Assembly (NCBI GenBank): GCA_000004985.1
Contig: GG738905.1
Strand: one strand, 5' to 3'
Length of the DNA: 64,000 nucleotides
Source: Naegleria gruberi
Taxonomy: Eukaryota
In this document: piece after piece, positions 23,808-42,899 of the stretch
Layout: the number at the start of each line of letters is the position of its first letter
How positions within the stretch are numbered: the stretch's first letter is position 1
Notes under the pieces: generated by a model
Database searches by the model: none
What the model saw: only the letters and a program-made list of their open reading frames with translations
What the model was told of the DNA's origin: nothing
Translations under genes and position numbers: made by a program

Positions 23808-26501
23808 TTAAATAAACAATACGGATAAAATAGAAATGATTATTACATCTAAACTAAGGATGGCCATGAATGATGAATTAATTACAGAACCTCCACCAAC
23901 TACTTTCTTACTTTGGCTAGTGATTGGACAATTAGATGCCATTATTTGGTAGGATCCATAATAATCCAATCCTATTTCAATACCATTTGTTGTCTTTGAT
24001 ATCTTTGAAATTCCACCATTTCCAACAGTACTTCCAATAGAGTAGACCTTTGAATTAATACTCACACATGATGCACTTGAAATCTGTTGAAGAACTACAG
24101 TTCCCTTTGATTTTGGAGGAACTTCAACAGTAATAGAAAAGAGGTTATTAGAATTGGACCAATACACTGATAACTTTCCGTTTGGAGTTTGTACTGCTCC
24201 TTTAGCCCATGTTAATGAACCAGTTTGAGGTTTTACAACCCATTCAGAGTAACCAGTACTAGTAGGTCTGATTCCTAGAACGTATTTTGAAAGCAATGGA
24301 GAAACGCCACCACTCCAAGCATGAGCAAAACTGTTTGAGGCGCTTTGAGTGGCTCCAATTTCAATACTTTCCCAAAAAGCATTGGTAAAGTAAGGTCCCT
24401 CAACAGTCATTGGTGTCCAAACTGAATTAATAATATCAAATGCATGATCTTCTCTATTTGATTCAAATGCTGCTGCTGCATGGAAGTAAGAAATGTATGG
24501 AGAGGTAAAAGATGCTCCAGCATTCTTGAATGTTAAATAATTAGAGCCAGACTTCAATTGATCTTTCATAGTATCCAGTAATGTGCTGGAAAAGTTCTTT
24601 CCTCTCAAAGATGCAATGCCTGATAATATTGCGAATGCATTGGTATCCTGAGCTATGCCAGACTTTTGATCTGAAATAATGTAAGTACCCGAGTTTGTAT
24701 CAAACAACTTTTCATTAACTAGTTGTTTTGTAGAGTTAGCTCTTATTAAGTACGTTTCAGCCAAATTTGTTTCTCCAACTGCTTTTGCCAAAACTGAAGC
24801 AGATTCCATTGCCATAGCATATTGAATATTTAGTTTTGTAAATCTTCCCAAAAGCATTCCTAAACTTGGATAAAAGTCATAGGTCCAATTTGGATTAACA
24901 CCTTGCAACAAACCATCACTACCTTTAAGAGAATCGAAAGCATTAATGAGTAATTTCAATCTTGTCCATTGTTCCTTAACAAAAGATAAATCGCCAGAAT
25001 ATAGATAGTATTCCTCAATAGCTGATAACGAAGCTAAAAAGTATGTATAACTGTAAAATATTGGTGTTACAAAATCGTCAGATGGATCAATGGTTTGATA
25101 AGGGAAACCAGTACCAATTCTAGAAGAAACAAATCCACTTTTCAATTGATAGGATGTGCATATTCCAAGAGTTCCACTTGCATATTCATTAGCATAATAA
25201 GAATAGTATAATAATGGGCCTGCTACGAGTAAGTCACCACTCCAAACATTACGATCTCTCTTAGCACCATCCAGAATTACAGCTACAGGGTTGGTTCCAA
25301 CTCCAAAATCATGAGCTGATTGTTTTGATGTGAGAGGATCTTGATGAAGAATGCTACCACTGACATCAACTACTTTAAGATTCTTAATAAATGCACTTTG
25401 ATACTTTTTAGCAGAAAATCCAACTCCACCTGGAACAACTGATGGGATGTATGGATTAGTGGACTGAGGAAGATTAATATCAAATATCAAGGCACCATCT
25501 ATATAAACCTTAAATACAAGTTGATTAACAGAAGCAAATACATCATACCATTGATTTTCAACCAAGTTAGGAAGCGAAGTATTGTAATACAAGGTTTCAT
25601 AAGGGTAAAGCTCTTGTGCACTTATTACTTGAATCATATTTGGATTATGAGAACTATTTAGGCTATTTAAGGTGACTCTTGTTTCAGAATAGTCGTTTGA
25701 TCTAATAGCAAAAGAAATACCATTCTTCATAAATAGAGTAGAGAAGGATACATTATAATTAATCCATGACATTCCCTTTAAAAAGACACCTGCAGTACCT
25801 GGTGAAATATAAAGACCTTGATCAGTGCTAATAAACCCAGGTTGAACAGTTCTTGGTGGGACCATGTTCAATTGTAAAGTTCTTACCCCCATATTCCACA
25901 TCTTGTTGTAAACCTCATTAGAACAAGAGAAAGCACCATTAGATTGAGAAGGATCTCTGGTATAGATAGCTGATGTGAATGAAACAGAAGAGATGGTAAT
26001 AGAAGCTCCAACAGTAAGTAATTCAATTCTCTGATAACGTTGAGCTCCTTGGATACCATTTGTATCAAAATGGCCAGCTATTTCAATGGTATGGATATTT
26101 ACTCTGTCCAAATCAAAGGCACGAATCATTGGATTGAACAACATGTCGCCATCCTTAATATTTGGAAGACTTTCAGAATAGGATACTCTAATTTCTATTG
26201 GACTTTGAGAAATGGATGCAATGTCAAACATTGGAAAACCAGCAACATTTTGTCCATAATCCAAAACAATGGAAGCAAGATTACCAGACATGTCATTATT
26301 GAGAGTAAATGGAAACATTCCATCAGCACCTGCAACAGTAACACTACCATTCACAGATAAAACAGATTTTGGTTTTTGGACAAGTGGCAAATCAGCAATA
26401 CTGCTGTCACCATTCACAAACATTTCATTGAGGTTAACCCACAACGCAACCAAAACGCTTAATACCAAGCATAAAACAGCTCTACTAGTTGTAGTTGTCA
26501 T
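23808..26501 (-). CDS. secreted (alpha/alpha)6-barrel glycoside hydrolase, alpha-L-rhamnosidase (GH78)-like, 897 aa, intronless
   Basis: Signal peptide MTTTTSRAVLCLVLSVLVALWVNL. The motif KRDRNVWSGD resembles the GH78 catalytic-domain R(D/E)RxGWxGD box. Size and composition fit bacterial or fungal rhamnosidases. The family is not certain (GH78 versus a related six-hairpin glycosidase). Confidence 0.5.
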   Translation of the reverse strand: MTTTTSRAVLCLVLSVLVALWVNLNEMFVNGDSSIADLPLVQKPKSVLSVNGSVTVAGADGMFPFTLNNDMSGNLASIVLDYGQNVAGFPMFDIASISQSPIEIRVSYSESLPNIKDGDMLFNPMIRAFDLDRVNIHTIEIAGHFDTNGIQGAQRYQRIELLTVGASITISSVSFTSAIYTRDPSQSNGAFSCSNEVYNKMWNMGVRTLQLNMVPPRTVQPGFISTDQGLYISPGTAGVFLKGMSWINYNVSFSTLFMKNGISFAIRSNDYSETRVTLNSLNSSHNPNMIQVISAQELYPYETLYYNTSLPNLVENQWYDVFASVNQLVFKVYIDGALIFDINLPQSTNPYIPSVVPGGVGFSAKKYQSAFIKNLKVVDVSGSILHQDPLTSKQSAHDFGVGTNPVAVILDGAKRDRNVWSGDLLVAGPLLYYSYYANEYASGTLGICTSYQLKSGFVSSRIGTGFPYQTIDPSDDFVTPIFYSYTYFLASLSAIEEYYLYSGDLSFVKEQWTRLKLLINAFDSLKGSDGLLQGVNPNWTYDFYPSLGMLLGRFTKLNIQYAMAMESASVLAKAVGETNLAETYLIRANSTKQLVNEKLFDTNSGTYIISDQKSGIAQDTNAFAILSGIASLRGKNFSSTLLDTMKDQLKSGSNYLTFKNAGASFTSPYISYFHAAAAFESNREDHAFDIINSVWTPMTVEGPYFTNAFWESIEIGATQSASNSFAHAWSGGVSPLLSKYVLGIRPTSTGYSEWVVKPQTGSLTWAKGAVQTPNGKLSVYWSNSNNLFSITVEVPPKSKGTVVLQQISSASCVSINSKVYSIGSTVGNGGISKISKTTNGIEIGLDYYGSYQIMASNCPITSQSKKVVGGGSVINSSFMAILSLDVIIISILSVLFI

Positions 26502-36704: not shown

Positions 36705-38306
36705 CTAGTTATCTGGATTTCTGGAATCGATAACATCGAATATTGAAAGTGCTTCATCTGCCTTTGGATGTCCTTGTTTTTTGGCAATAAGGAAGAATGA
36801 ATAGGCCAACTCTCCATTTTGATTATCCAAAAAGAATTTTCCTAATACGAAACTAGCTCTAGAATTTCCCAATTTAGATGATCTTTGTAAACATGAAAAA
36901 GCATATTCCATATCAGCTTGCTCCCATTCCTGTTCAAACATATGAAGACAACCAGCTCTAAACAAAATACCAGAATTATTTGGATCGATTGACAAATATT
37001 TAGAATAGGTTTGATCTGCCAAATCCAAGTTAGGTTCCAGTAATACTTGTCCACTCTCTGAAACCTTTCCATCCTCATAGAATCCAGCCAATAAACCAAG
37101 TGCCTTAAGATTTCCATTATCTGCTGCCTTTTTTAAATATTCTAAACCTTTCAAATCATCAACTGGTGTGGCAATTCCTAAAAAGTGGAATTCAGCAACT
37201 CTCATTAAAGCATCTGGATAATTTAAATCAGCTGCCTTATTATACCATTCCAATGCCTTTTCATCACTTTTTTCAAATGATTTTCCATATTCATAAAACT
37301 CTCCCAATCTAATCGACAAATATTATTGAAATATTTCACATTATGTTACAACATTTCAATCATTAAAACTATAATTAACATACCTATACATGCATCCTGG
37401 ATTGTTCTTTTCAGCTCCAAGCTCAAACCAAACTCTAGCTGTTGTATTACTTGAAGAGAGGAATTTGGTCTTTAATGGATTTGAAATAAAGTCAAATTCA
37501 AGATAATACTCCTTATAGAATAGCATACCAGCAAAGTAATAAGCTTCTGGATAACCTGATCTGGCACTTTCTAATATAAGTGAATGAATTTGCTTTGCTT
37601 CATATGGAAGAATGAAGGTATTTCTAAGTAATTGAGCTAGTGCCAATGATTTTTCTGGAGTTTTCTCTTTAGAGTAGACTAGTGCTTTTTTCAATAATAA
37701 ATGAGTGTAAACTTGATCGATTTGAATGCTTGCATCCCCTTGTTTCGAATAGAAAACTTTCAAGTTGTGACGATCAGGTGTTGTTTCCTCCTCACTGTCA
37801 TCATTTTCAAAGTTTTCATCCACAAATAAATATTCCAAAGAAGGTAATTTCATTTCCTTCATGCAATTTTCCAATGCTTTCTTCGTAATCTTATTTCTAC
37901 TAATATCCAATAACTTTAATTGATTCCATTTTGAATGATTCATCAATAAATCCAAACATTCATCATTCAATTCACACTCAACTAATCTCAATTCCTCCAA
38001 TTCTTCCCATTCACTATTAGAAACTAACTTTCTAACACTTGATTCGTCTAAATTTCCTCCCAAAATTTGTAAAATCTTCAATCCTTTAAAATTTGAATTT
38101 TCACATATTGCATCCACTTCTTCCGAACCCACTTTCGTATTTAATAGGAATATTCTCTTCAGAGGAGTTTCAATTTTTTGTAATTCTTCCGAGGCAGTGC
38201 TACTTTCACCCAATTCGAATAAAGTTTCTTGCTCCCAATCAATGGCTTCCGAATTGTCCAACTCCTTGTTTGTGTGTGGTAAATTCATAACGTGTTCTGT
38301 TTGCAT
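36705..38306 (-). CDS. LRR plus SEL1-repeat protein, 2 exons
   Basis: Exons are 37384..38306 (leucine-rich repeat region LKILQILGGNL...LRLVECELNDECLDLLMNH...LLDISRNKI) and 36705..37308 (SEL1/TPR-like repeats ALEWYNKAADLNYPDALMRVAEFHFLG...AADNGNLKALGLLAGFYEDG). They are joined by a 75-nt intron (GTATGT..CGATTAG) at 37309..37383; the junction reads CMYR|LGEFYEYG. Confidence 0.6.
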
Positions 38307-38474: not shown

Positions 38475-39425
38475 TTGTTTAGAACAAACTTCTACAATAA
38501 GAGTAGTGGAACATGTGAAGTGATAGAAGGGCCTGTTCTCATTACAAAAACACCAGGTCTATTCAGATCCGATATGAGACTATTCCAGGCAGTGAAGAAA
38601 GATTGCTTGACCCATTTAAAAGATGTAGTTGTGTTTTCCTCTTTAGGACCAGAATTTGTACCTTCTCTGATATCTGGAGCTGATTTAGATGGTGACCATT
38701 TTTACATTTTCTGGGATTCTGAGCTTGTGGAGAATATACAATGTGTTGATGAAAAGGAACCATCATCCATATTATCGAATACACCAGTCAATAATAACTC
38801 ATTGAATACTTACAATTGGAGCTGTCTCTATACAAACATTCCAACTTTTTCAGAAGATGTTATCGACAATGTTGGTTTAGAGGATGAATTTGATAATTAT
38901 GAAATAGCCATTAAGAAGTCGTATCAAAAATTGCTATTAGCTCTTGACACTTTCAAATATTGCTCCTTCTCTCACTTACTTGAATTGAGAAGAATTTTTG
39001 TTGATTACTTTGCAATTAATTGGGCAAACAATAATGAATATTACAATATCATGTATCAAATCGCAAATGCCATTACCTGCACCATAGACGCTCCAAAACA
39101 TGGACAGTGGAAAGAATGGAAAGACTTTCTGCCAATCATATCAAATATTCCAAAAAGCCCACATTATTTACTTACAGGGAATTGTACTATTTCACATTCG
39201 ATATTTGGTAAAAATGTAAAGATTGAATGCAATTATGATGGAAATGGTGGCGAAGCTTTTTACCTACTATTCGAAAATTGCCTTAAGAAATATGATTTAG
39301 AAACGTATGACCCTATTTGGACATCTCCAACTCTTGAAAATCCAATTGCAATAGATATTCATGATGACACCAAGGACTACAGAAATAATTTAATCAGTAT
39401 TGGATCAAGCATCAAATCAAATTGA
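38475..39425 (+). CDS. RNA-dependent RNA polymerase (eukaryotic RDR/QDE-1 type) C-terminal fragment containing the DLDGD catalytic motif; possibly truncated or pseudogenic
   Basis: GPVLITKTPGLFRSDMRLFQAVKK...VVFSSLGPEFVPSLISGADLDGDHFYIFWD matches the RDR catalytic core. The ORF is only 316 aa and begins at TTG. An in-frame stop lies just upstream and the first ATG is 34 codons in. Only about 170 bp separate it from the start of the neighbouring minus-strand gene, so there is no room for the roughly 600-aa N-terminal part of a full RDR. Confidence 0.45.
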   Translation: MFRTNFYNKSSGTCEVIEGPVLITKTPGLFRSDMRLFQAVKKDCLTHLKDVVVFSSLGPEFVPSLISGADLDGDHFYIFWDSELVENIQCVDEKEPSSILSNTPVNNNSLNTYNWSCLYTNIPTFSEDVIDNVGLEDEFDNYEIAIKKSYQKLLLALDTFKYCSFSHLLELRRIFVDYFAINWANNNEYYNIMYQIANAITCTIDAPKHGQWKEWKDFLPIISNIPKSPHYLLTGNCTISHSIFGKNVKIECNYDGNGGEAFYLLFENCLKKYDLETYDPIWTSPTLENPIAIDIHDDTKDYRNNLISIGSSIKSN

Positions 39426-39477
39426 AATAATAATAATCATAAACTAACTATTAAAGACATGTTAAATATTATTTAAT

Positions 39478-39720
39478 TTATTTATTAACACCTGGGAAGG
39501 AATCAACGTATTTAATCTTAAAATCAGGGAAGGAATCAACAATTTTAATCTTGTAATCAGGGAAGGAATCAACAATTTTCCATTTACCTGCAGAATCAGG
39601 GAAGGAATCAACAAGTTTAACTTTGAGATCAGGGAAGGAATCGACAATTTTAACTTTATAATCTGGGAAACTGTCAACGAATTTAATCTTTCCGTAAATC
39701 TTGGAAACGTCTGGAGCCAT
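39478..39720 (-). CDS. small ORF (80 aa) made of seven tandem copies of an 11-aa unit (K-x-K-x-VDSFPD-x)
   Basis: MAPDVSKIYG KIKFVDSFPDY KVKIVDSFPDL KVKLVDSFPDS ... KIKYVDSFPGVNK. It is encoded by a 33-bp tandem DNA repeat (atcagggaaggaatcaacaattttaatcttgta), and the coding frame is maintained across all copies. Confidence 0.4.
   Translation of the reverse strand: MAPDVSKIYGKIKFVDSFPDYKVKIVDSFPDLKVKLVDSFPDSAGKWKIVDSFPDYKIKIVDSFPDFKIKYVDSFPGVNK
39490..39700. repeat. 33-bp tandem repeat array (about 6.5 copies), in-frame with ORF 39478..39720
   Basis: Directly visible periodicity on the plus strand of the motif gggaaggaatcaacaa (written here) recurring every 33 bp, with minor substitutions. 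Confidence 0.8.
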
Positions 39721-39952
39721 TGTTTATTTGTTTTTTTTTGATCTAATTAAAACTACATCTTTTCTAATCAAAATGATTTTATTGGTTGTTGTGAAATTCA
39801 CACAACATCATGTTCTGACATGTTCCAATAAAAAAGGAAGAAAATGATGCTTCATCATTATATCCATCAATCGAGTCAGTGGTTACAATATTAGAAACTA
39901 CAGATATTTTACAGTTTCAAGTTGATAGGTTTTTATTTTAAACCAAGTTTAA

Positions 39953-41506
39953 TTACAATTCATCCTTACGAGTTGTTGGTGTAAGGATTTTGAGGTAAAT
40001 TTCAAGGATTTTCTTTTCTGATTGAATGTATCTGACAGCACATTTCTGAGACATGGTCACAGGAAGTCTTTTTCCTAGTATTGATTCATTTTCTTGTATC
40101 ATTTCAATAATATTATCCAATCTTTGTTTGATGAGTCCTCTAATTGTTTCAATGACAATCTTTTCATTTCTATCCGAAATTGGGTTGATTAGGATTTTAG
40201 CAATCATGTCTCTCTTCTGATCCAATGGTGCTAATGAATTGGCAATATCAGAGAGGGCCTTAATTTCCACTGAATCACAGCTCAATATTCTCATAATGGC
40301 AATAATATTCGGATCAAATATTTCACTGAGAGTATGTTCTACTAAATTAAAGCTATCATCATTATAGTAGAGAGTTTGTGTGAGATGATATTCATCAAGG
40401 GAGGTCATTGAGAGTAAACGCACTCTTTGATTGTTGAGCTTCTTATCGACAGTGGACATTCTCCTCATTACAGATTCTCTCATATCAATAACAGTGATAG
40501 TATTATTCAAAAACTCAATTTCTGGATCATCCAATGGACAAAAACCATAATCCATCATGAGAATATGATTCAGTGTTGGAGTTAATTTTCCATACTTTAC
40601 AAAAAGTTGATTTCCAGCTTTGACTCTCTTTGATGTTTTGAAAATGAGCTCATTGGTCTTCTTGTCAGTGTAAGAAATTACATTTGCACCAGTCTTTGAA
40701 AAGTTAATAATATCACCCAATGGAACAAAACATGAACGATCTGTCTTGATTCTGTAATCATAAATCGAGTGAATTCTAGACCAACTGAGAGAAACAAAAT
40801 GTTCAAATAATCCAAGAGTAATTGAAGAAGTGTTTCTAATTGGTTCTAATACTGTCAAATCATTCAATAATGGATTGACAATTTTTTGAAATGAATTGGC
40901 AATACTTTGTCTTCTTGTAAGAGCTGATGGAAGTAATGTAGACCCCTTCAATAATGTTAATTCTTCTCCACCAAAAAGGAATGCTACTTTTGGACCTTCA
41001 TCACGAAATGGTCTTGGTAGAGATCCAATATATGGAGTGAATTTGACAGCATCAGCATCAAACTTCATTTCAGGATTGCTTGATTGAGCCAAATTAAATA
41101 AATAAACAATCATCAAAACCATTGCATTAAAAATTGACAAATCCCCTTCCTGTAATCTCTTTAAAGTATCCAATGACTTGGCATTCTCATGTTTAAATAA
41201 TTTTTCAAATATAAATTTCGAATCCAGCAAGGTCTCTTGTTTTAATTTAAACAAAATTGTATTCTGTTTAATATCTTTAGTGGCAACAAGTGCCTTTCCA
41301 AAATCAACCACTTGTTTAATTTCAAATAAATTATCATTCACCTCCGAATGTTCCTCTTCTCTCATCCACTTTGTCAATAAATTAAATCTTTCATCATTCG
41401 ATGCCACAACAACACTCCAATGATAACAAAATACCATCATTGTCATCAATAAGAACATCATCACAAAATTCCTTGATGATGAATGATGAGCTTTCATGTT
41501 GGGCAT
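39953..41506 (-). CDS. SET-domain lysine methyltransferase (SETD6/RBCMT-like, with Rubisco-LSMT-type substrate-binding region), 517 aa
   Basis: N-SET FGKALVATKDIKQNTILFKL. Post-SET region CFVPLGDIINFSKTGANVISY...AGNQLFVKYGK (compare ALVPxxDxxNH...GEExxxxYG). Hydrophobic N-terminus. Intronless. Confidence 0.5.
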   Translation of the reverse strand: MPNMKAHHSSSRNFVMMFLLMTMMVFCYHWSVVVASNDERFNLLTKWMREEEHSEVNDNLFEIKQVVDFGKALVATKDIKQNTILFKLKQETLLDSKFIFEKLFKHENAKSLDTLKRLQEGDLSIFNAMVLMIVYLFNLAQSSNPEMKFDADAVKFTPYIGSLPRPFRDEGPKVAFLFGGEELTLLKGSTLLPSALTRRQSIANSFQKIVNPLLNDLTVLEPIRNTSSITLGLFEHFVSLSWSRIHSIYDYRIKTDRSCFVPLGDIINFSKTGANVISYTDKKTNELIFKTSKRVKAGNQLFVKYGKLTPTLNHILMMDYGFCPLDDPEIEFLNNTITVIDMRESVMRRMSTVDKKLNNQRVRLLSMTSLDEYHLTQTLYYNDDSFNLVEHTLSEIFDPNIIAIMRILSCDSVEIKALSDIANSLAPLDQKRDMIAKILINPISDRNEKIVIETIRGLIKQRLDNIIEMIQENESILGKRLPVTMSQKCAVRYIQSEKKILEIYLKILTPTTRKDEL

Positions 41507-41864: not shown

Positions 41865-42899
41865 TTATTCACAATCATCAACAGAAGTGATGCTAACATC
41901 ACATCTCCAAGTTGTTTTATACATTTTCCTTCTGATATGTTCTTCATATCTTGAAATGAAGAAATTATCTTTCAGTATAACTACTCTGCCTGATCTCCAC
42001 TCAGTAACAAGTAGGTCTCCATTTCGGTCATTCAAAGAGATACCCAGAGGATAATCAACACCAGTAACACTCTCGAGATATTCTCCCTCAGATGTGAATA
42101 TCTGTATTCTATCATTAAAGCTATCTGAAACATAAATATTTCCAGTTCTTTTCTCAACACAGACAGAACATGGCTCATTGAACTCGCCATTTTCCCTTCC
42201 TCGTTTACCAAAACTTTTGATAAACTTTCCCTCCTTAGATATTATTTGAACTCTATGATTGTATCTATCTGTAATAATTAAATTATCATCATTTCCGAAA
42301 CAAATATTTCTTGATTGAATAAATTCCAAATTCCCACTTCCATGTTTTCCAAATTCCCTCACATAATTACCGTTGGAATCTAAAACAAGAATTCTATTAT
42401 TTGCTTGATCACAAAGATAAATATTTCGCTCCTTTGAATTGAAATCAATAGCAATTCCAGAAGGTAAATTAAAACCACCAGTAGTTTTCCAAATTAATTT
42501 TCCAAAGACTGAATATTTGTACAATGTATTATCATTTGATCCAAATAATATTGTTGAATCCTCTGGATTGAACTCAATATAAAATGGAATATCTGCACCA
42601 CAATCAATTTTGTATTTCCATTCGTATGTATTTAACTCAAACACTTGAATAGCGTTATTTCCTGAATCACAAACAAATATCAGTTCTTGATTATTATCTA
42701 CGCACATATCGTATGGATTGGAAAACCTTCTATTTACTCCCAATATTTTCTTATAACAGTATCTTACATTGTTTGTGTTGATCATCACTTCCTTCCCGTC
42801 TTCTTCTTCGACAACCGTTTGCCAATCTAGTTCTTCTTCCTCTTGCAAATCATCATCATCGTAGAACATCTCATCTGTAAAATCATCATCATCTGACAT
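41865..42899 (-). CDS. NHL-repeat beta-propeller protein (344 aa) with an acidic N-terminus
   Basis: Repeated NHL units (FNLPSGIAIDFNSKERNIYLCDQANNRILVLDSNGNYVREFGKHGSGNLEF..., NHRVQIISKEGKFIKSFGKRGRENGEFNEPCSV..., NDRIQIFTSEGEYL). N-terminal DDDD/EEEE run. Confidence 0.6.
   Translation of the reverse strand: MSDDDDFTDEMFYDDDDLQEEEELDWQTVVEEEDGKEVMINTNNVRYCYKKILGVNRRFSNPYDMCVDNNQELIFVCDSGNNAIQVFELNTYEWKYKIDCGADIPFYIEFNPEDSTILFGSNDNTLYKYSVFGKLIWKTTGGFNLPSGIAIDFNSKERNIYLCDQANNRILVLDSNGNYVREFGKHGSGNLEFIQSRNICFGNDDNLIITDRYNHRVQIISKEGKFIKSFGKRGRENGEFNEPCSVCVEKRTGNIYVSDSFNDRIQIFTSEGEYLESVTGVDYPLGISLNDRNGDLLVTEWRSGRVVILKDNFFISRYEEHIRRKMYKTTWRCDVSITSVDDCE

What the first reader, a model, noticed from the sequence alone, without database searches (positions are those of the whole stretch)
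39478..39720. Small gene made of a 33-bp in-frame tandem repeat encoding (K-x-K-x-VDSFPD-x)x7
Seven near-identical 11-aa units are encoded by an in-frame 33-bp DNA repeat. The alternating K-hydrophobic-K-hydrophobic then VDSFPD pattern suggests an amphipathic beta-strand repeat protein or a multi-copy peptide precursor; there are no dibasic cleavage sites. Copy-number variation would change protein length directly. The function is not obvious.
Basis: seen in the sequence. Interest (0 to 1): 0.55.

Follow-up and report, generated by a model that had tools for sequence, protein, structure and literature searches.

The report
Knotted mini-protein gene in Naegleria
The repeat is a real 80-codon gene in the amoeba Naegleria gruberi for a member of a known, mostly bacterial family of tiny proteins whose solved relative ties the most complex protein knot known (seven crossings), so the family is known and its presence in a eukaryote is the only unusual point.

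Summary
The ORF at 39478-39720 lies on the minus strand. It has six, not seven, 11-residue units (K-x-K-x-V-D-S-F-P-D-x), with a 2-residue insert before unit 4.

It is not an orphan repeat. It belongs to Pfam PF19647, the "7(1) septoil knot" (Septknot) domain:
- It is 87-91% identical to bacterial homologues.
- It matches the solved structure of Ureaplasma Q9PR55 (8IWA) at E=1.8e-11.

Each DNA repeat encodes one beta-strand plus one SFPD loop. The six-unit layout showed no indels in about 90 homologues aligned by hand, so it is a fixed structural repeat. It is neither a variable tandem repeat nor a peptide precursor.

The window is Naegleria gruberi nuclear DNA; flanking ORFs are EFC38737 and EFC38738. 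The gene has host-like composition and no signal peptide. Synonymous sites are saturated against every homologue while the protein is conserved. An independent metagenome contig confirms its linkage to the neighbouring gene. The likeliest origin is an old horizontal transfer from bacteria or phage.

The physiological role of the family is unknown. Verdict: a new, eukaryotic, leaderless member of a known kind.

The parts
39478..39720 (-). Complete ORF (80 codons + TAA) encoding a leaderless Septknot (PF19647) domain protein
39658..39690 (-). Repeat unit 1 (residues 11-21, KIKFVDSFPDY): strand 1 + SFPD loop
   Evidence: Codon table; strand E10-14.
39625..39657 (-). Repeat unit 2 (residues 22-32, KVKIVDSFPDL)
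39592..39624 (-). Repeat unit 3 (residues 33-43, KVKLVDSFPDS)
39586..39591 (-). Two-residue insert (A44 G45) before unit 4. G45 and W47 are invariant in the alignment of 84 family members.
   Evidence: invariant columns G45, W47; insert present in all homologues listed.
39553..39585 (-). Repeat unit 4 (residues 46-56, KWKIVDSFPDY)
39520..39552 (-). Repeat unit 5 (residues 57-67, KIKIVDSFPDF)
39487..39519 (-). Repeat unit 6 (residues 68-78, KIKYVDSFPGV), terminal SFPG variant that is conserved family-wide
   Evidence: P76 and G77 invariant.
39721..39952 (-). 232-bp upstream intergenic region between the stop of the SET-domain gene (EFC38737) and the ATG. It has an in-frame TAA two codons before the ATG and no plausible signal-peptide exon. 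It presumably holds the promoter and 5'UTR (inferred).
   Evidence: Three-frame translation. The same junction is present on an independent metagenome contig, L001.

Best explanation
This is an intact Naegleria gruberi nuclear gene for a leaderless member of the Septknot family (Pfam PF19647, '7(1) septoil knot domain'). The 33-bp DNA repeat is the nucleotide shadow of a fixed protein-structural repeat. Each 11-residue unit contributes one short beta-strand (K-x-K-x-V, lysines outward) and one tight S-F-P-D loop. Six such units, plus a conserved G-x-W insert, wind round a common axis into a small beta-barrel. In the solved homologue Q9PR55 that chain path is a 7_1 (seven-crossing torus) knot. 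The Q9PR55 study reports that this knot resists 7.2 M urea and ClpXP unfolding. Because the number of windings sets the topology, the unit number is fixed across the family and does not vary. Most bacterial members carry a signal peptide and are exported. The Naegleria protein starts exactly at the mature domain, like a minority of bacterial and phage members, so it should stay in the cytosol. Its patchy distribution across many bacterial phyla and phages, together with its position in a eukaryotic chromosome, points to acquisition by horizontal transfer. That transfer is old enough for synonymous sites to be saturated against every sampled homologue. Shown here: family membership, fold match, gene integrity, host context and lack of a leader. 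Inferred: the knot type, expression, direction of transfer, and that the protein works as a hyperstable, unfolding-resistant module that presents its conserved exposed Phe/Asp loops to a still-unknown partner.
For: Family and fold:
- 1810 homologues at E<=0.01; the top 120 all carry PF19647 and are 59-89% identical to the query.
- 1317 clusters at 50% identity match at E<=1e-3.
- PDB phmmer hits 8iwa_A (Q9PR55) at E=1.8e-11.
- The AF2 model has pLDDT 90.4 and six strands.
- The literature reports a 7_1 knot, SFPD loops with outward-pointing Phe, and urea and ClpXP resistance (PMC10840475; PMC9278004).

Host:
- Flanking ORFs are exact matches to N. gruberi EFC38737, EFC38738 and EFC38733 on a 290,827-bp scaffold.
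- Other window genes are eukaryotic (NPC1, RdRP, MAPEG, carboxyltransferase).
- ORF GC is 0.34 and GC3 0.32, close to neighbouring genes.
- The independent metagenome contig L001 carries the same ORF joined to the SET gene's 3' end. It differs by one substitution in the ORF, a synonymous one.

Leaderless start:
- An in-frame stop lies two codons upstream of the ATG.
- Leaderless bacterial relatives exist, e.g. L016 at 91% identity.
- Phage relatives also exist.

Selection:
- Against 14 homologues, pS is 0.77-1.09 (saturated) and pN is 0.07-0.19.

Fixed architecture:
- No indels were seen in roughly 90 homologues. Only whole-domain duplications occur.
Against: - No transcript or peptide evidence could be obtained, so expression in Naegleria is inferred from ORF integrity and conservation.
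- The knot type of the model was not computed, because coordinates are not exposed. Brems et al. report a 48%-identical homologue, P73136, predicted as 5_1 rather than 7_1, so the exact crossing number could differ.
- The local Pfam hmmscan does not list PF19647 for this protein. It also fails for the bona fide members P0001, P0017 and P0104, so this is a tool limitation and not evidence against membership.
- The closest sampled homologue (L016) is itself AT-rich (GC 0.29), so host-like composition does not prove long residence.
- The direction of transfer, and whether other eukaryotes carry the gene, could not be tested.
- The physiological function is unknown for the whole family. The neighbour survey found no conserved partner.
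Confidence: 0.82

Rival explanations
1. Decaying relic of a horizontal transfer: the ORF is homologous to Septknot genes but is not expressed or used in Naegleria.
For: The exact 80-aa sequence was not found in the clustered protein collection that does hold the flanking N. gruberi proteins, so it may be unannotated. No expression data are available. It sits next to a truncated RdRP ORF, which may mark a degenerate region.
Against: The ORF is full length and starts precisely at the domain boundary. It keeps all 12 invariant family residues. Synonymous sites are saturated against every homologue while pN is about 0.1. The only substitution in the ORF between the two independent Naegleria-type sequences is synonymous. 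A neutral 243-bp AT-rich sequence would be expected to acquire stops or indels over that divergence.
Confidence: 0.12
2. Bacterial or phage contamination, or a chimeric join in the assembly, and not a Naegleria gene.
For: The family is overwhelmingly bacterial and phage-borne. The best hit is a Bacteroidota MAG of similar GC.
Against: The gene lies 232 bp from N. gruberi EFC38737 and 52 bp from a eukaryotic-type RdRP ORF, inside a 290-kb scaffold. An independently assembled metagenome contig (L001) reproduces the junction with the SET gene's 3' end at 567/568 aligned bases. No sampled bacterial or phage gene exceeds 77% nucleotide identity.
Confidence: 0.03
3. Multi-copy peptide precursor or hypervariable coding minisatellite.
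For: Near-identical 11-residue units are encoded by a 33-bp DNA repeat. Inter-unit codon identity is unusually high in Naegleria (0.73, against 0.33-0.59 in bacterial and phage genes).
Against: Homologues fold as a single knotted domain. There are no dibasic or other recurrent cleavage sites. No conserved processing enzymes appear in 149 neighbouring ORFs. The unit number and the insert are the same from Pseudomonas to phage to Naegleria.
Confidence: 0.02
4. A conflict-related mobile module: leaderless, cytosolic Septknot proteins act in phage-host conflict, for example as unfoldase- or protease-jamming decoys or as accessories of defence systems, and Naegleria has co-opted one.
For: Leaderless copies sit beside terminase genes on phage contigs and in a P2-like element (L101). 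The closest homologue, L016, lies between a DSPc phosphatase and ThsB-TIR-like and SLATT genes, with HEC-01B/DUF4276 upstream. L033 lies directly downstream of a complete Thoeris ThsB/ThsA pair. Q9PR55 stalls ClpXP in vitro (PMC10840475).
Against: Only 2 of 9 leaderless bacterial loci show defence neighbours; others are housekeeping (Hsp33, TrkH, GGDEF). Defence islands and phages collect many unrelated cargo genes. Most family members are exported, which does not fit a cytosolic target. No experiment links the family to immunity.
Confidence: 0.1

Closest known systems
Q9PR55 / UU089.1 of Ureaplasma (PDB 8IWA, 8IWB, 8IWC, 8JRM, 8W68), the experimentally verified 7_1-knotted protein
   Same: Same domain: E=1.8e-11 and 43-44% identity. 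Both have six strands separated by SFPD-type loops. The AF2 model superposes at 1.8 Å over 63 residues. Neither protein shows a typical signal peptide; Q9PR55 has a disordered N-terminus of about 11 residues.
   Different: The Naegleria protein has a canonical SFP[DG] motif in all six loops, whereas the aligned Q9PR55 sequence has SFCEE at the third loop. It has a shorter loop between units 3 and 4, is eukaryote-encoded, and is much closer (up to 91%) to Bacteroidota and Pseudomonas members than to Ureaplasma. Its knot type and stability were not measured.
Pfam PF19647 'Septknot' bacterial members with signal peptides (e.g. Pseudomonas P0017, Pirellulaceae P0104, Verrucomicrobiales P0043)
   Same: 77-88% identity across the 74-residue core in the sequences examined, with identical length and unit layout.
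   Different: They carry an N-terminal signal or lipoprotein-like leader and are presumably periplasmic or secreted. The Naegleria gene starts at the mature domain.
Leaderless Septknot genes of Bacteroidota and Spirochaetota MAGs and of phages (L016, L033, L029, L094, L101)
   Same: The start is MA(K)PDV... directly at the domain, total length is 80-83 aa, and identity reaches 91%.
   Different: These are prokaryotic or viral genes, some in defence islands or next to terminase genes. The Naegleria copy lies between ordinary eukaryotic genes.
P73136 (Synechocystis), homologue predicted by AlphaFold to be a 5_1 knot
   Same: Reported as a homologue of Q9PR55, 48% identical to it, with a closely similar predicted fold (PMC9278004).
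   Different: It is reported to have one winding fewer. Whether the Naegleria protein is 7_1 or 5_1 was not computed here. Its full six-unit alignment to Q9PR55 favours 7_1.
De novo designed knotted tandem-repeat proteins (torus-knot designs, PMC10598012)
   Same: The principle is the same: a tandem sequence repeat whose per-unit rotation makes the chain wind more than once round an axis, giving a (2,q) torus knot.
   Different: Those are helical, designed, 3_1 knots. Septknot is natural, all-beta, and 7_1.

Membership tests
Septknot / 7(1) septoil knot domain (Pfam PF19647, ex-DUF6150) | Significant sequence similarity to family members | tested here: met
   Top 120 of 1810 hits all carry precomputed PF19647, at E from 2.5e-36 to 1.1e-29. 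Match to 8iwa_A at E=1.8e-11.
Septknot / 7(1) septoil knot domain (Pfam PF19647, ex-DUF6150) | Direct match to the Pfam HMM above its gathering score | tested here: inconclusive
   The local hmmscan lists no PF19647 hit for the query. It also lists none for P0001, P0017 and P0104, which are precomputed members. The local scan therefore cannot detect this model.
Septknot / 7(1) septoil knot domain (Pfam PF19647, ex-DUF6150) | Six strand-plus-SFPD-loop units with the conserved G-x-W insert before unit 4 and a terminal SFPG | tested here: met
   (invariant G10, V15, P19, G45, W47, V50, D55, V61, D66, V72, P76, G77).
Septknot / 7(1) septoil knot domain (Pfam PF19647, ex-DUF6150) | Three-dimensional fold of Q9PR55 | tested here: met
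Septknot / 7(1) septoil knot domain (Pfam PF19647, ex-DUF6150) | 7_1 knotted backbone topology | not testable with these tools
The topology is inferred from the superposition on 8IWA.
Septknot / 7(1) septoil knot domain (Pfam PF19647, ex-DUF6150) | Exceptional chemical and mechanical stability (urea, ClpXP) | not testable with these tools
   Known only for Q9PR55 (PMC10840475).
Exported Septknot subgroup | N-terminal signal peptide | tested here: not met
   An in-frame stop lies two codons upstream of the ATG, and there is no leader exon in the 232-bp upstream region. The protein belongs to the leaderless minority.
Multi-copy peptide precursor (RiPP-like or neuropeptide-like) | Repeated core peptides flanked by cleavage sites, with associated processing enzymes | tested here: not met
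   The sequence has no dibasic or recurrent cleavage motif. No conserved neighbour appears in 149 flanking ORFs of homologues. The chain folds as one domain.
Variable-number coding tandem repeat (contingency or minisatellite locus) | Unit number differs between relatives or strains | tested here: not met
   The same six units and the same insert occur in all homologues examined and in the second Naegleria-type contig.

The most novel reading that the evidence does not exclude
The Naegleria gene would be the first eukaryotic, cytosolic example of the 7_1-knot protein. Leaderless Septknot proteins in general would be mobile conflict modules carried by phages and defence islands, possibly acting as unfoldase- or proteasome-resistant plugs or decoys, one of which an amoeba that grazes on bacteria has captured and kept.
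Probability: 0.1. Interest if true: 0.7.

Novelty: new member of a known kind. Interest (0 to 1): 0.4.

Why it matters
The family is known mainly as a topological curiosity: it holds the smallest and most complex protein knot, and no biological role has been assigned to it. An intact, leaderless copy in a eukaryotic nuclear genome would do three things. It extends the family beyond bacteria and phages. It offers a tractable eukaryotic setting for asking how such a knot folds and survives the proteasome. It adds a clean case of bacterium- or phage-to-protist gene transfer. The survey done here may also help to find a function: extreme conservation across phyla, an exported majority and a leaderless minority, and carriage by phages and in two defence-island contexts. 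For genome annotation, the gene could not be confirmed among annotated N. gruberi proteins and should be checked.

Tried and rejected
- Pfam and NCBIfam scans of the protein gave only sub-threshold noise. Re-scanning known members showed that the local Pfam scan cannot return PF19647, so the negative result was discarded.
- The afdb50 fold search, which would have given the organisms of structural relatives, was unavailable.
- An N-terminal extension or leader exon was looked for in the 240 bases upstream and not found.
- Recent transfer was tested by nucleotide and synonymous-site comparison with the closest bacterial and phage genes. All were saturated, so no recent donor has been sampled.
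- A Pfam survey of 149 ORFs flanking homologues in 78 bacterial loci found no conserved partner. The top families, Peptidase_S9 and DeoC, each occurred 6 times, which is more likely lineage synteny than a conserved partnership.
- A survey of 74 ORFs around leaderless copies found phage genes and, in two loci, defence genes. There was no consistent partner.
- Eukaryotic relatives were sought among short or leaderless cluster representatives. No taxonomic names were available. One candidate, P0007, appears to be an alternative-code read-through call.
- Codon-bias evidence for high expression is ambiguous. TCC, TTC and TAC are enriched, but GAT and ATT are not replaced by GAC and ATC. Intragenic homogenisation of the units is an equally good explanation.
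- The literature search found no functional study of the family.

Full report
**1. The observation**

The minus strand of 39478-39720 carries an 80-codon ORF, ATG to TAA: MAPDVSKIYGKIKFVDSFPDYKVKIVDSFPDLKVKLVDSFPDSAGKWKIVDSFPDYKIKIVDSFPDFKIKYVDSFPGVNK. Tandem Repeats Finder reports a 33-bp period over 39494-39690, with 5.8 copies, 75% matches and score 165. Splitting the protein at each VDSFP gives six 11-residue units, not seven, and a 2-residue insert (A44 G45) precedes unit 4. In a six-frame scan of the 64 kb for SFP[DGN], all six motifs ending in D or G fall in this ORF; the three other hits are isolated SFPN. The coordinates, the in-frame 33-bp period, the K-x-K-x pattern and the lack of dibasic sites are all correct. 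The unit count is one too high, and the strand is minus.

**2. What the protein is**

- A search of about 5.8 billion proteins gave 1810 hits at E<=0.01. The best 120 (E from 2.5e-36 to 1.1e-29, 59-89% identity) all carry Pfam PF19647. Other tool outputs name this model "Septknot" or "7(1) septoil knot domain".
- An exhaustive HMMER search of 1.84 billion 50%-identity representatives found 1317 clusters at E<=1e-3 and 772 at E<=1e-10.
- Against PDB sequences, the only significant match is 8iwa_A, "Uncharacterized protein UU089.1", at E=1.8e-11 with query residues 11-72 aligned.
- That protein is Q9PR55 of Ureaplasma. Crystal and NMR structures established it as the first 7_1-knotted protein and the smallest and most complex protein knot known. 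SFPD motifs sit in the loops between its beta-strands and its phenylalanines point outward. It shows no unfolding in 7.2 M urea and strongly resists ClpXP (PMC10840475). The knot was first predicted in PMC9278004.
- An AlphaFold2 model of the window protein, built on an 84-sequence alignment, has mean pLDDT 90.4 and six strands at residues 10-14, 21-25, 32-36, 46-49, 56-60 and 67-71.
- The local Pfam hmmscan does not list PF19647 for the query. It also fails for three precomputed members, so that negative result says nothing about membership.

**3. How the DNA repeat relates to the fold**

Each 33-bp unit encodes one strand (K-x-K-x-V) and one S-F-P-D loop. In roughly 90 bacterial and phage homologues extracted with fixed offsets, the six-unit layout, the insert before the invariant G-x-W and the terminal SFPG are identical in length, with no indels. 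In the representative search, almost every match spans query residues 2-8 to 77-80. The only length variation is a duplication of the whole domain, as in P0126 (181 aa) and P0135 (273 aa).

This is therefore an ancient, fixed structural repeat. It fits the principle that a tandem repeat winding more than once round an axis gives a torus knot (PMC10598012).

The repeat is especially visible at the DNA level in Naegleria because codon choice is unusually uniform between units:
- Identical codons for identical residues occur at a rate of 0.73 between units, against 0.33-0.59 in six bacterial and phage genes.
- Units 2-5 all use GAT TCC TTC CCT GAT.
- TCC accounts for 6 of 8 Ser codons, against a background of 10%. 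TTC accounts for 7 of 8 Phe codons, against 35%.

I could not decide whether this reflects intragenic homogenisation or codon selection.

**4. Where the gene sits**

- Flanking ORFs are exact matches to Naegleria gruberi proteins on a 290,827-bp scaffold. ORF 39953-41506(-) is EFC38737 / NAEGRDRAFT_73465. ORF 41865-42899(-) is EFC38738. ORF 23808-26501(-) is EFC38733.
- The rest of the window encodes eukaryotic proteins, including an NPC1-like protein, MAPEG, MatE, an acyl-CoA carboxyltransferase and a eukaryotic-type RdRP.
- The window GC is about 0.27-0.36. The ORF has GC 0.34 and GC3 0.32, like its neighbours.
- The ATG lies 232 bp downstream of the stop of the SET-domain gene, on the same strand. 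A TAA lies in frame two codons upstream of the ATG, and no signal-peptide exon is visible.
- An independently assembled 571-bp metagenome contig (L001, ERZ929261) carries the same ORF joined to the SET gene's 3' end. Identity is 567/568 aligned bases, and the only difference inside the ORF is synonymous (S74 TCC>TCA). This argues against an assembly chimera or contamination.
- The exact 80-aa sequence was not found in the clustered protein collection that contains the flanking N. gruberi proteins. The gene may therefore be unannotated, but I could not verify that.

**5. Distribution and origin**

- A scan of one genome per GTDB species found 280 loci encoding relatives. They fall in Pseudomonas, Lysobacterales, Gilliamella, Succinivibrio, Verrucomicrobiota, Planctomycetota, Bacteroidota, Spirochaetota, Acidobacteriota, Myxococcota, Clostridia and several candidate phyla.
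- The 80 best loci are 65-91% identical to the Naegleria protein. This is an unusually conserved yet patchily distributed small protein.
- Most carry an N-terminal hydrophobic leader. About 10 of 78 begin directly at the domain.
- The best match overall is such a leaderless gene: L016, a Prolixibacteraceae MAG, MAKPDVSKIYGKIKIV..., 91% identical, in a locus of GC 0.32.
- Thirty-four IMG/VR viral contigs also carry the domain. They include leaderless copies about 100 bp from terminase genes and one in a P2-like element.
- Nucleotide identity to the Naegleria gene never exceeds 0.77. Synonymous differences are saturated (pS 0.77-1.09) while pN is 0.07-0.19.
- The most economical reading is a horizontal transfer from a bacterium or phage into the Naegleria lineage that is not recent, followed by retention. 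The direction of transfer and the absence of the gene from other eukaryotes are inferred, not tested.

**6. Function**

No paper in the searchable library assigns a function to the family. [quoted passage not shown]

A Pfam survey of the 149 ORFs flanking homologues found no conserved partner. The most frequent families, Peptidase_S9 and DeoC, each occurred 6 times, which is more likely lineage synteny than a conserved partnership.

Around leaderless copies the picture is one of mobile or variable regions:
- Several loci carry phage structural or replication genes.
- L016 is flanked by DUF4276/HEC-01B, a DSPc phosphatase, a ThsB-like TIR protein and a SLATT effector.
- L033 lies directly downstream of a complete Thoeris ThsB/ThsA pair.
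- The other leaderless loci look like housekeeping regions.

My committed model is this. The Naegleria product is a cytosolic, monomeric, knotted mini-barrel. Its value lies in extreme resistance to unfolding and proteolysis, and in a rigid array of conserved exposed Phe/Asp loops that bind an unknown partner. A conflict-related role, such as an unfoldase-jamming decoy or a defence accessory, is a lead worth testing, but I give it only about 10%.

**7. Comparison, novelty and score**

The gene meets every family criterion that could be tested: sequence, unit architecture, and predicted fold superposable on 8IWA. It differs from most members in lacking a signal peptide and in being eukaryote-encoded. 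Knot type and stability could not be tested here.

It is a new member of a known kind. Interest is moderate (0.4). The residual interest lies in the eukaryotic, leaderless, possibly unannotated copy, and in the still-open biology of the family.

Noticed in passing
window 38475-39425 (+): A 316-aa ORF matches only positions 375-465 of the 582-position eukaryotic RdRP profile (PF05183, E=6.7e-24) and includes the DLDGD motif. The upstream space is occupied by a minus-strand LRR/Sel1-like ORF, so this looks like a truncated RdRP gene or one with missing exons. It ends 52 bp from the Septknot stop codon, in convergent orientation.
   Followed up: partly
window 39953-41506 (-): The SET-domain plus Rubisco-LSMT substrate-binding protein (EFC38737) has a hydrophobic N-terminal leader and ends in KDEL. 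This suggests an ER-resident lysine methyltransferase.
   Followed up: no
window 23808-26501 (-): An 897-aa ORF (EFC38733) matches the bacterial alpha-L-rhamnosidase domains Bac_rhamnosid6H and Bac_rhamnosid_C. It is another candidate bacterial-origin gene in the same window.
   Followed up: no
window 36705-38306 (-): Two adjacent minus-strand ORFs, one Sel1-like by eye (36705-37319) and one weakly LRR-like (37356-38306), are separated by 36 bp. They may be one gene with a short intron or a frameshift.
   Followed up: no
window 39462-39677 (-): A 71-aa ORF lies in a second frame of the same strand, across the repeat (MTVSQIIKLKLSIPSLISKLNLL...). It is most simply a by-product of the repeat's periodicity and not a second gene.
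   Followed up: partly
L016 84-5271; L033 1351-2847: The two Bacteroidota leaderless homologues closest to the Naegleria protein sit in defence-island contexts. L016 has DUF4276/HEC-01B (apparently frameshifted), DSPc, a ThsB-like TIR protein and SLATT. L033 has a full Thoeris ThsB plus ThsA immediately upstream.
   Followed up: partly
L106-L126 (IMG/VR prophage-type contigs): A group of 21 prophage-region homologues (45-50% identity) has a signal peptide and a conserved Cys pair (..DC.. and ..QCGEW..). This suggests a periplasmic disulfide-stapled variant. The gene often lies 4-5 kb from the predicted prophage end, so it may be host flank and not phage cargo.
   Followed up: no
L004 6001-12300: In Pseudomonas sp. 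MAFF 302030 the Septknot gene lies directly upstream of a urea-type ABC transporter operon and ureD. The solved homologue comes from urea-dependent Ureaplasma and resists 7.2 M urea. This may be coincidence; the pairing was not seen among the top families in the wider neighbour survey.
   Followed up: partly
L127-L130 (P0007): A leaderless homologue (83% identity) is recorded as 127 aa, but the locus 'does not translate to the query' under table 11. The call probably reads through a TGA, so the real product would end just after ...SFPGVKQ unless the organism uses an alternative code.
   Followed up: no
tool behaviour: The local Pfam hmmscan never reports PF19647, even for proteins whose precomputed annotation is PF19647. 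Negative Pfam results for this repetitive family are unreliable.
   Followed up: yes
P0126, P0127, P0130, P0135, P0141, P0228, P0241: Some family members contain two matched stretches, i.e. two Septknot domains in tandem (181-273 aa). They may be doubly knotted proteins.
   Followed up: no
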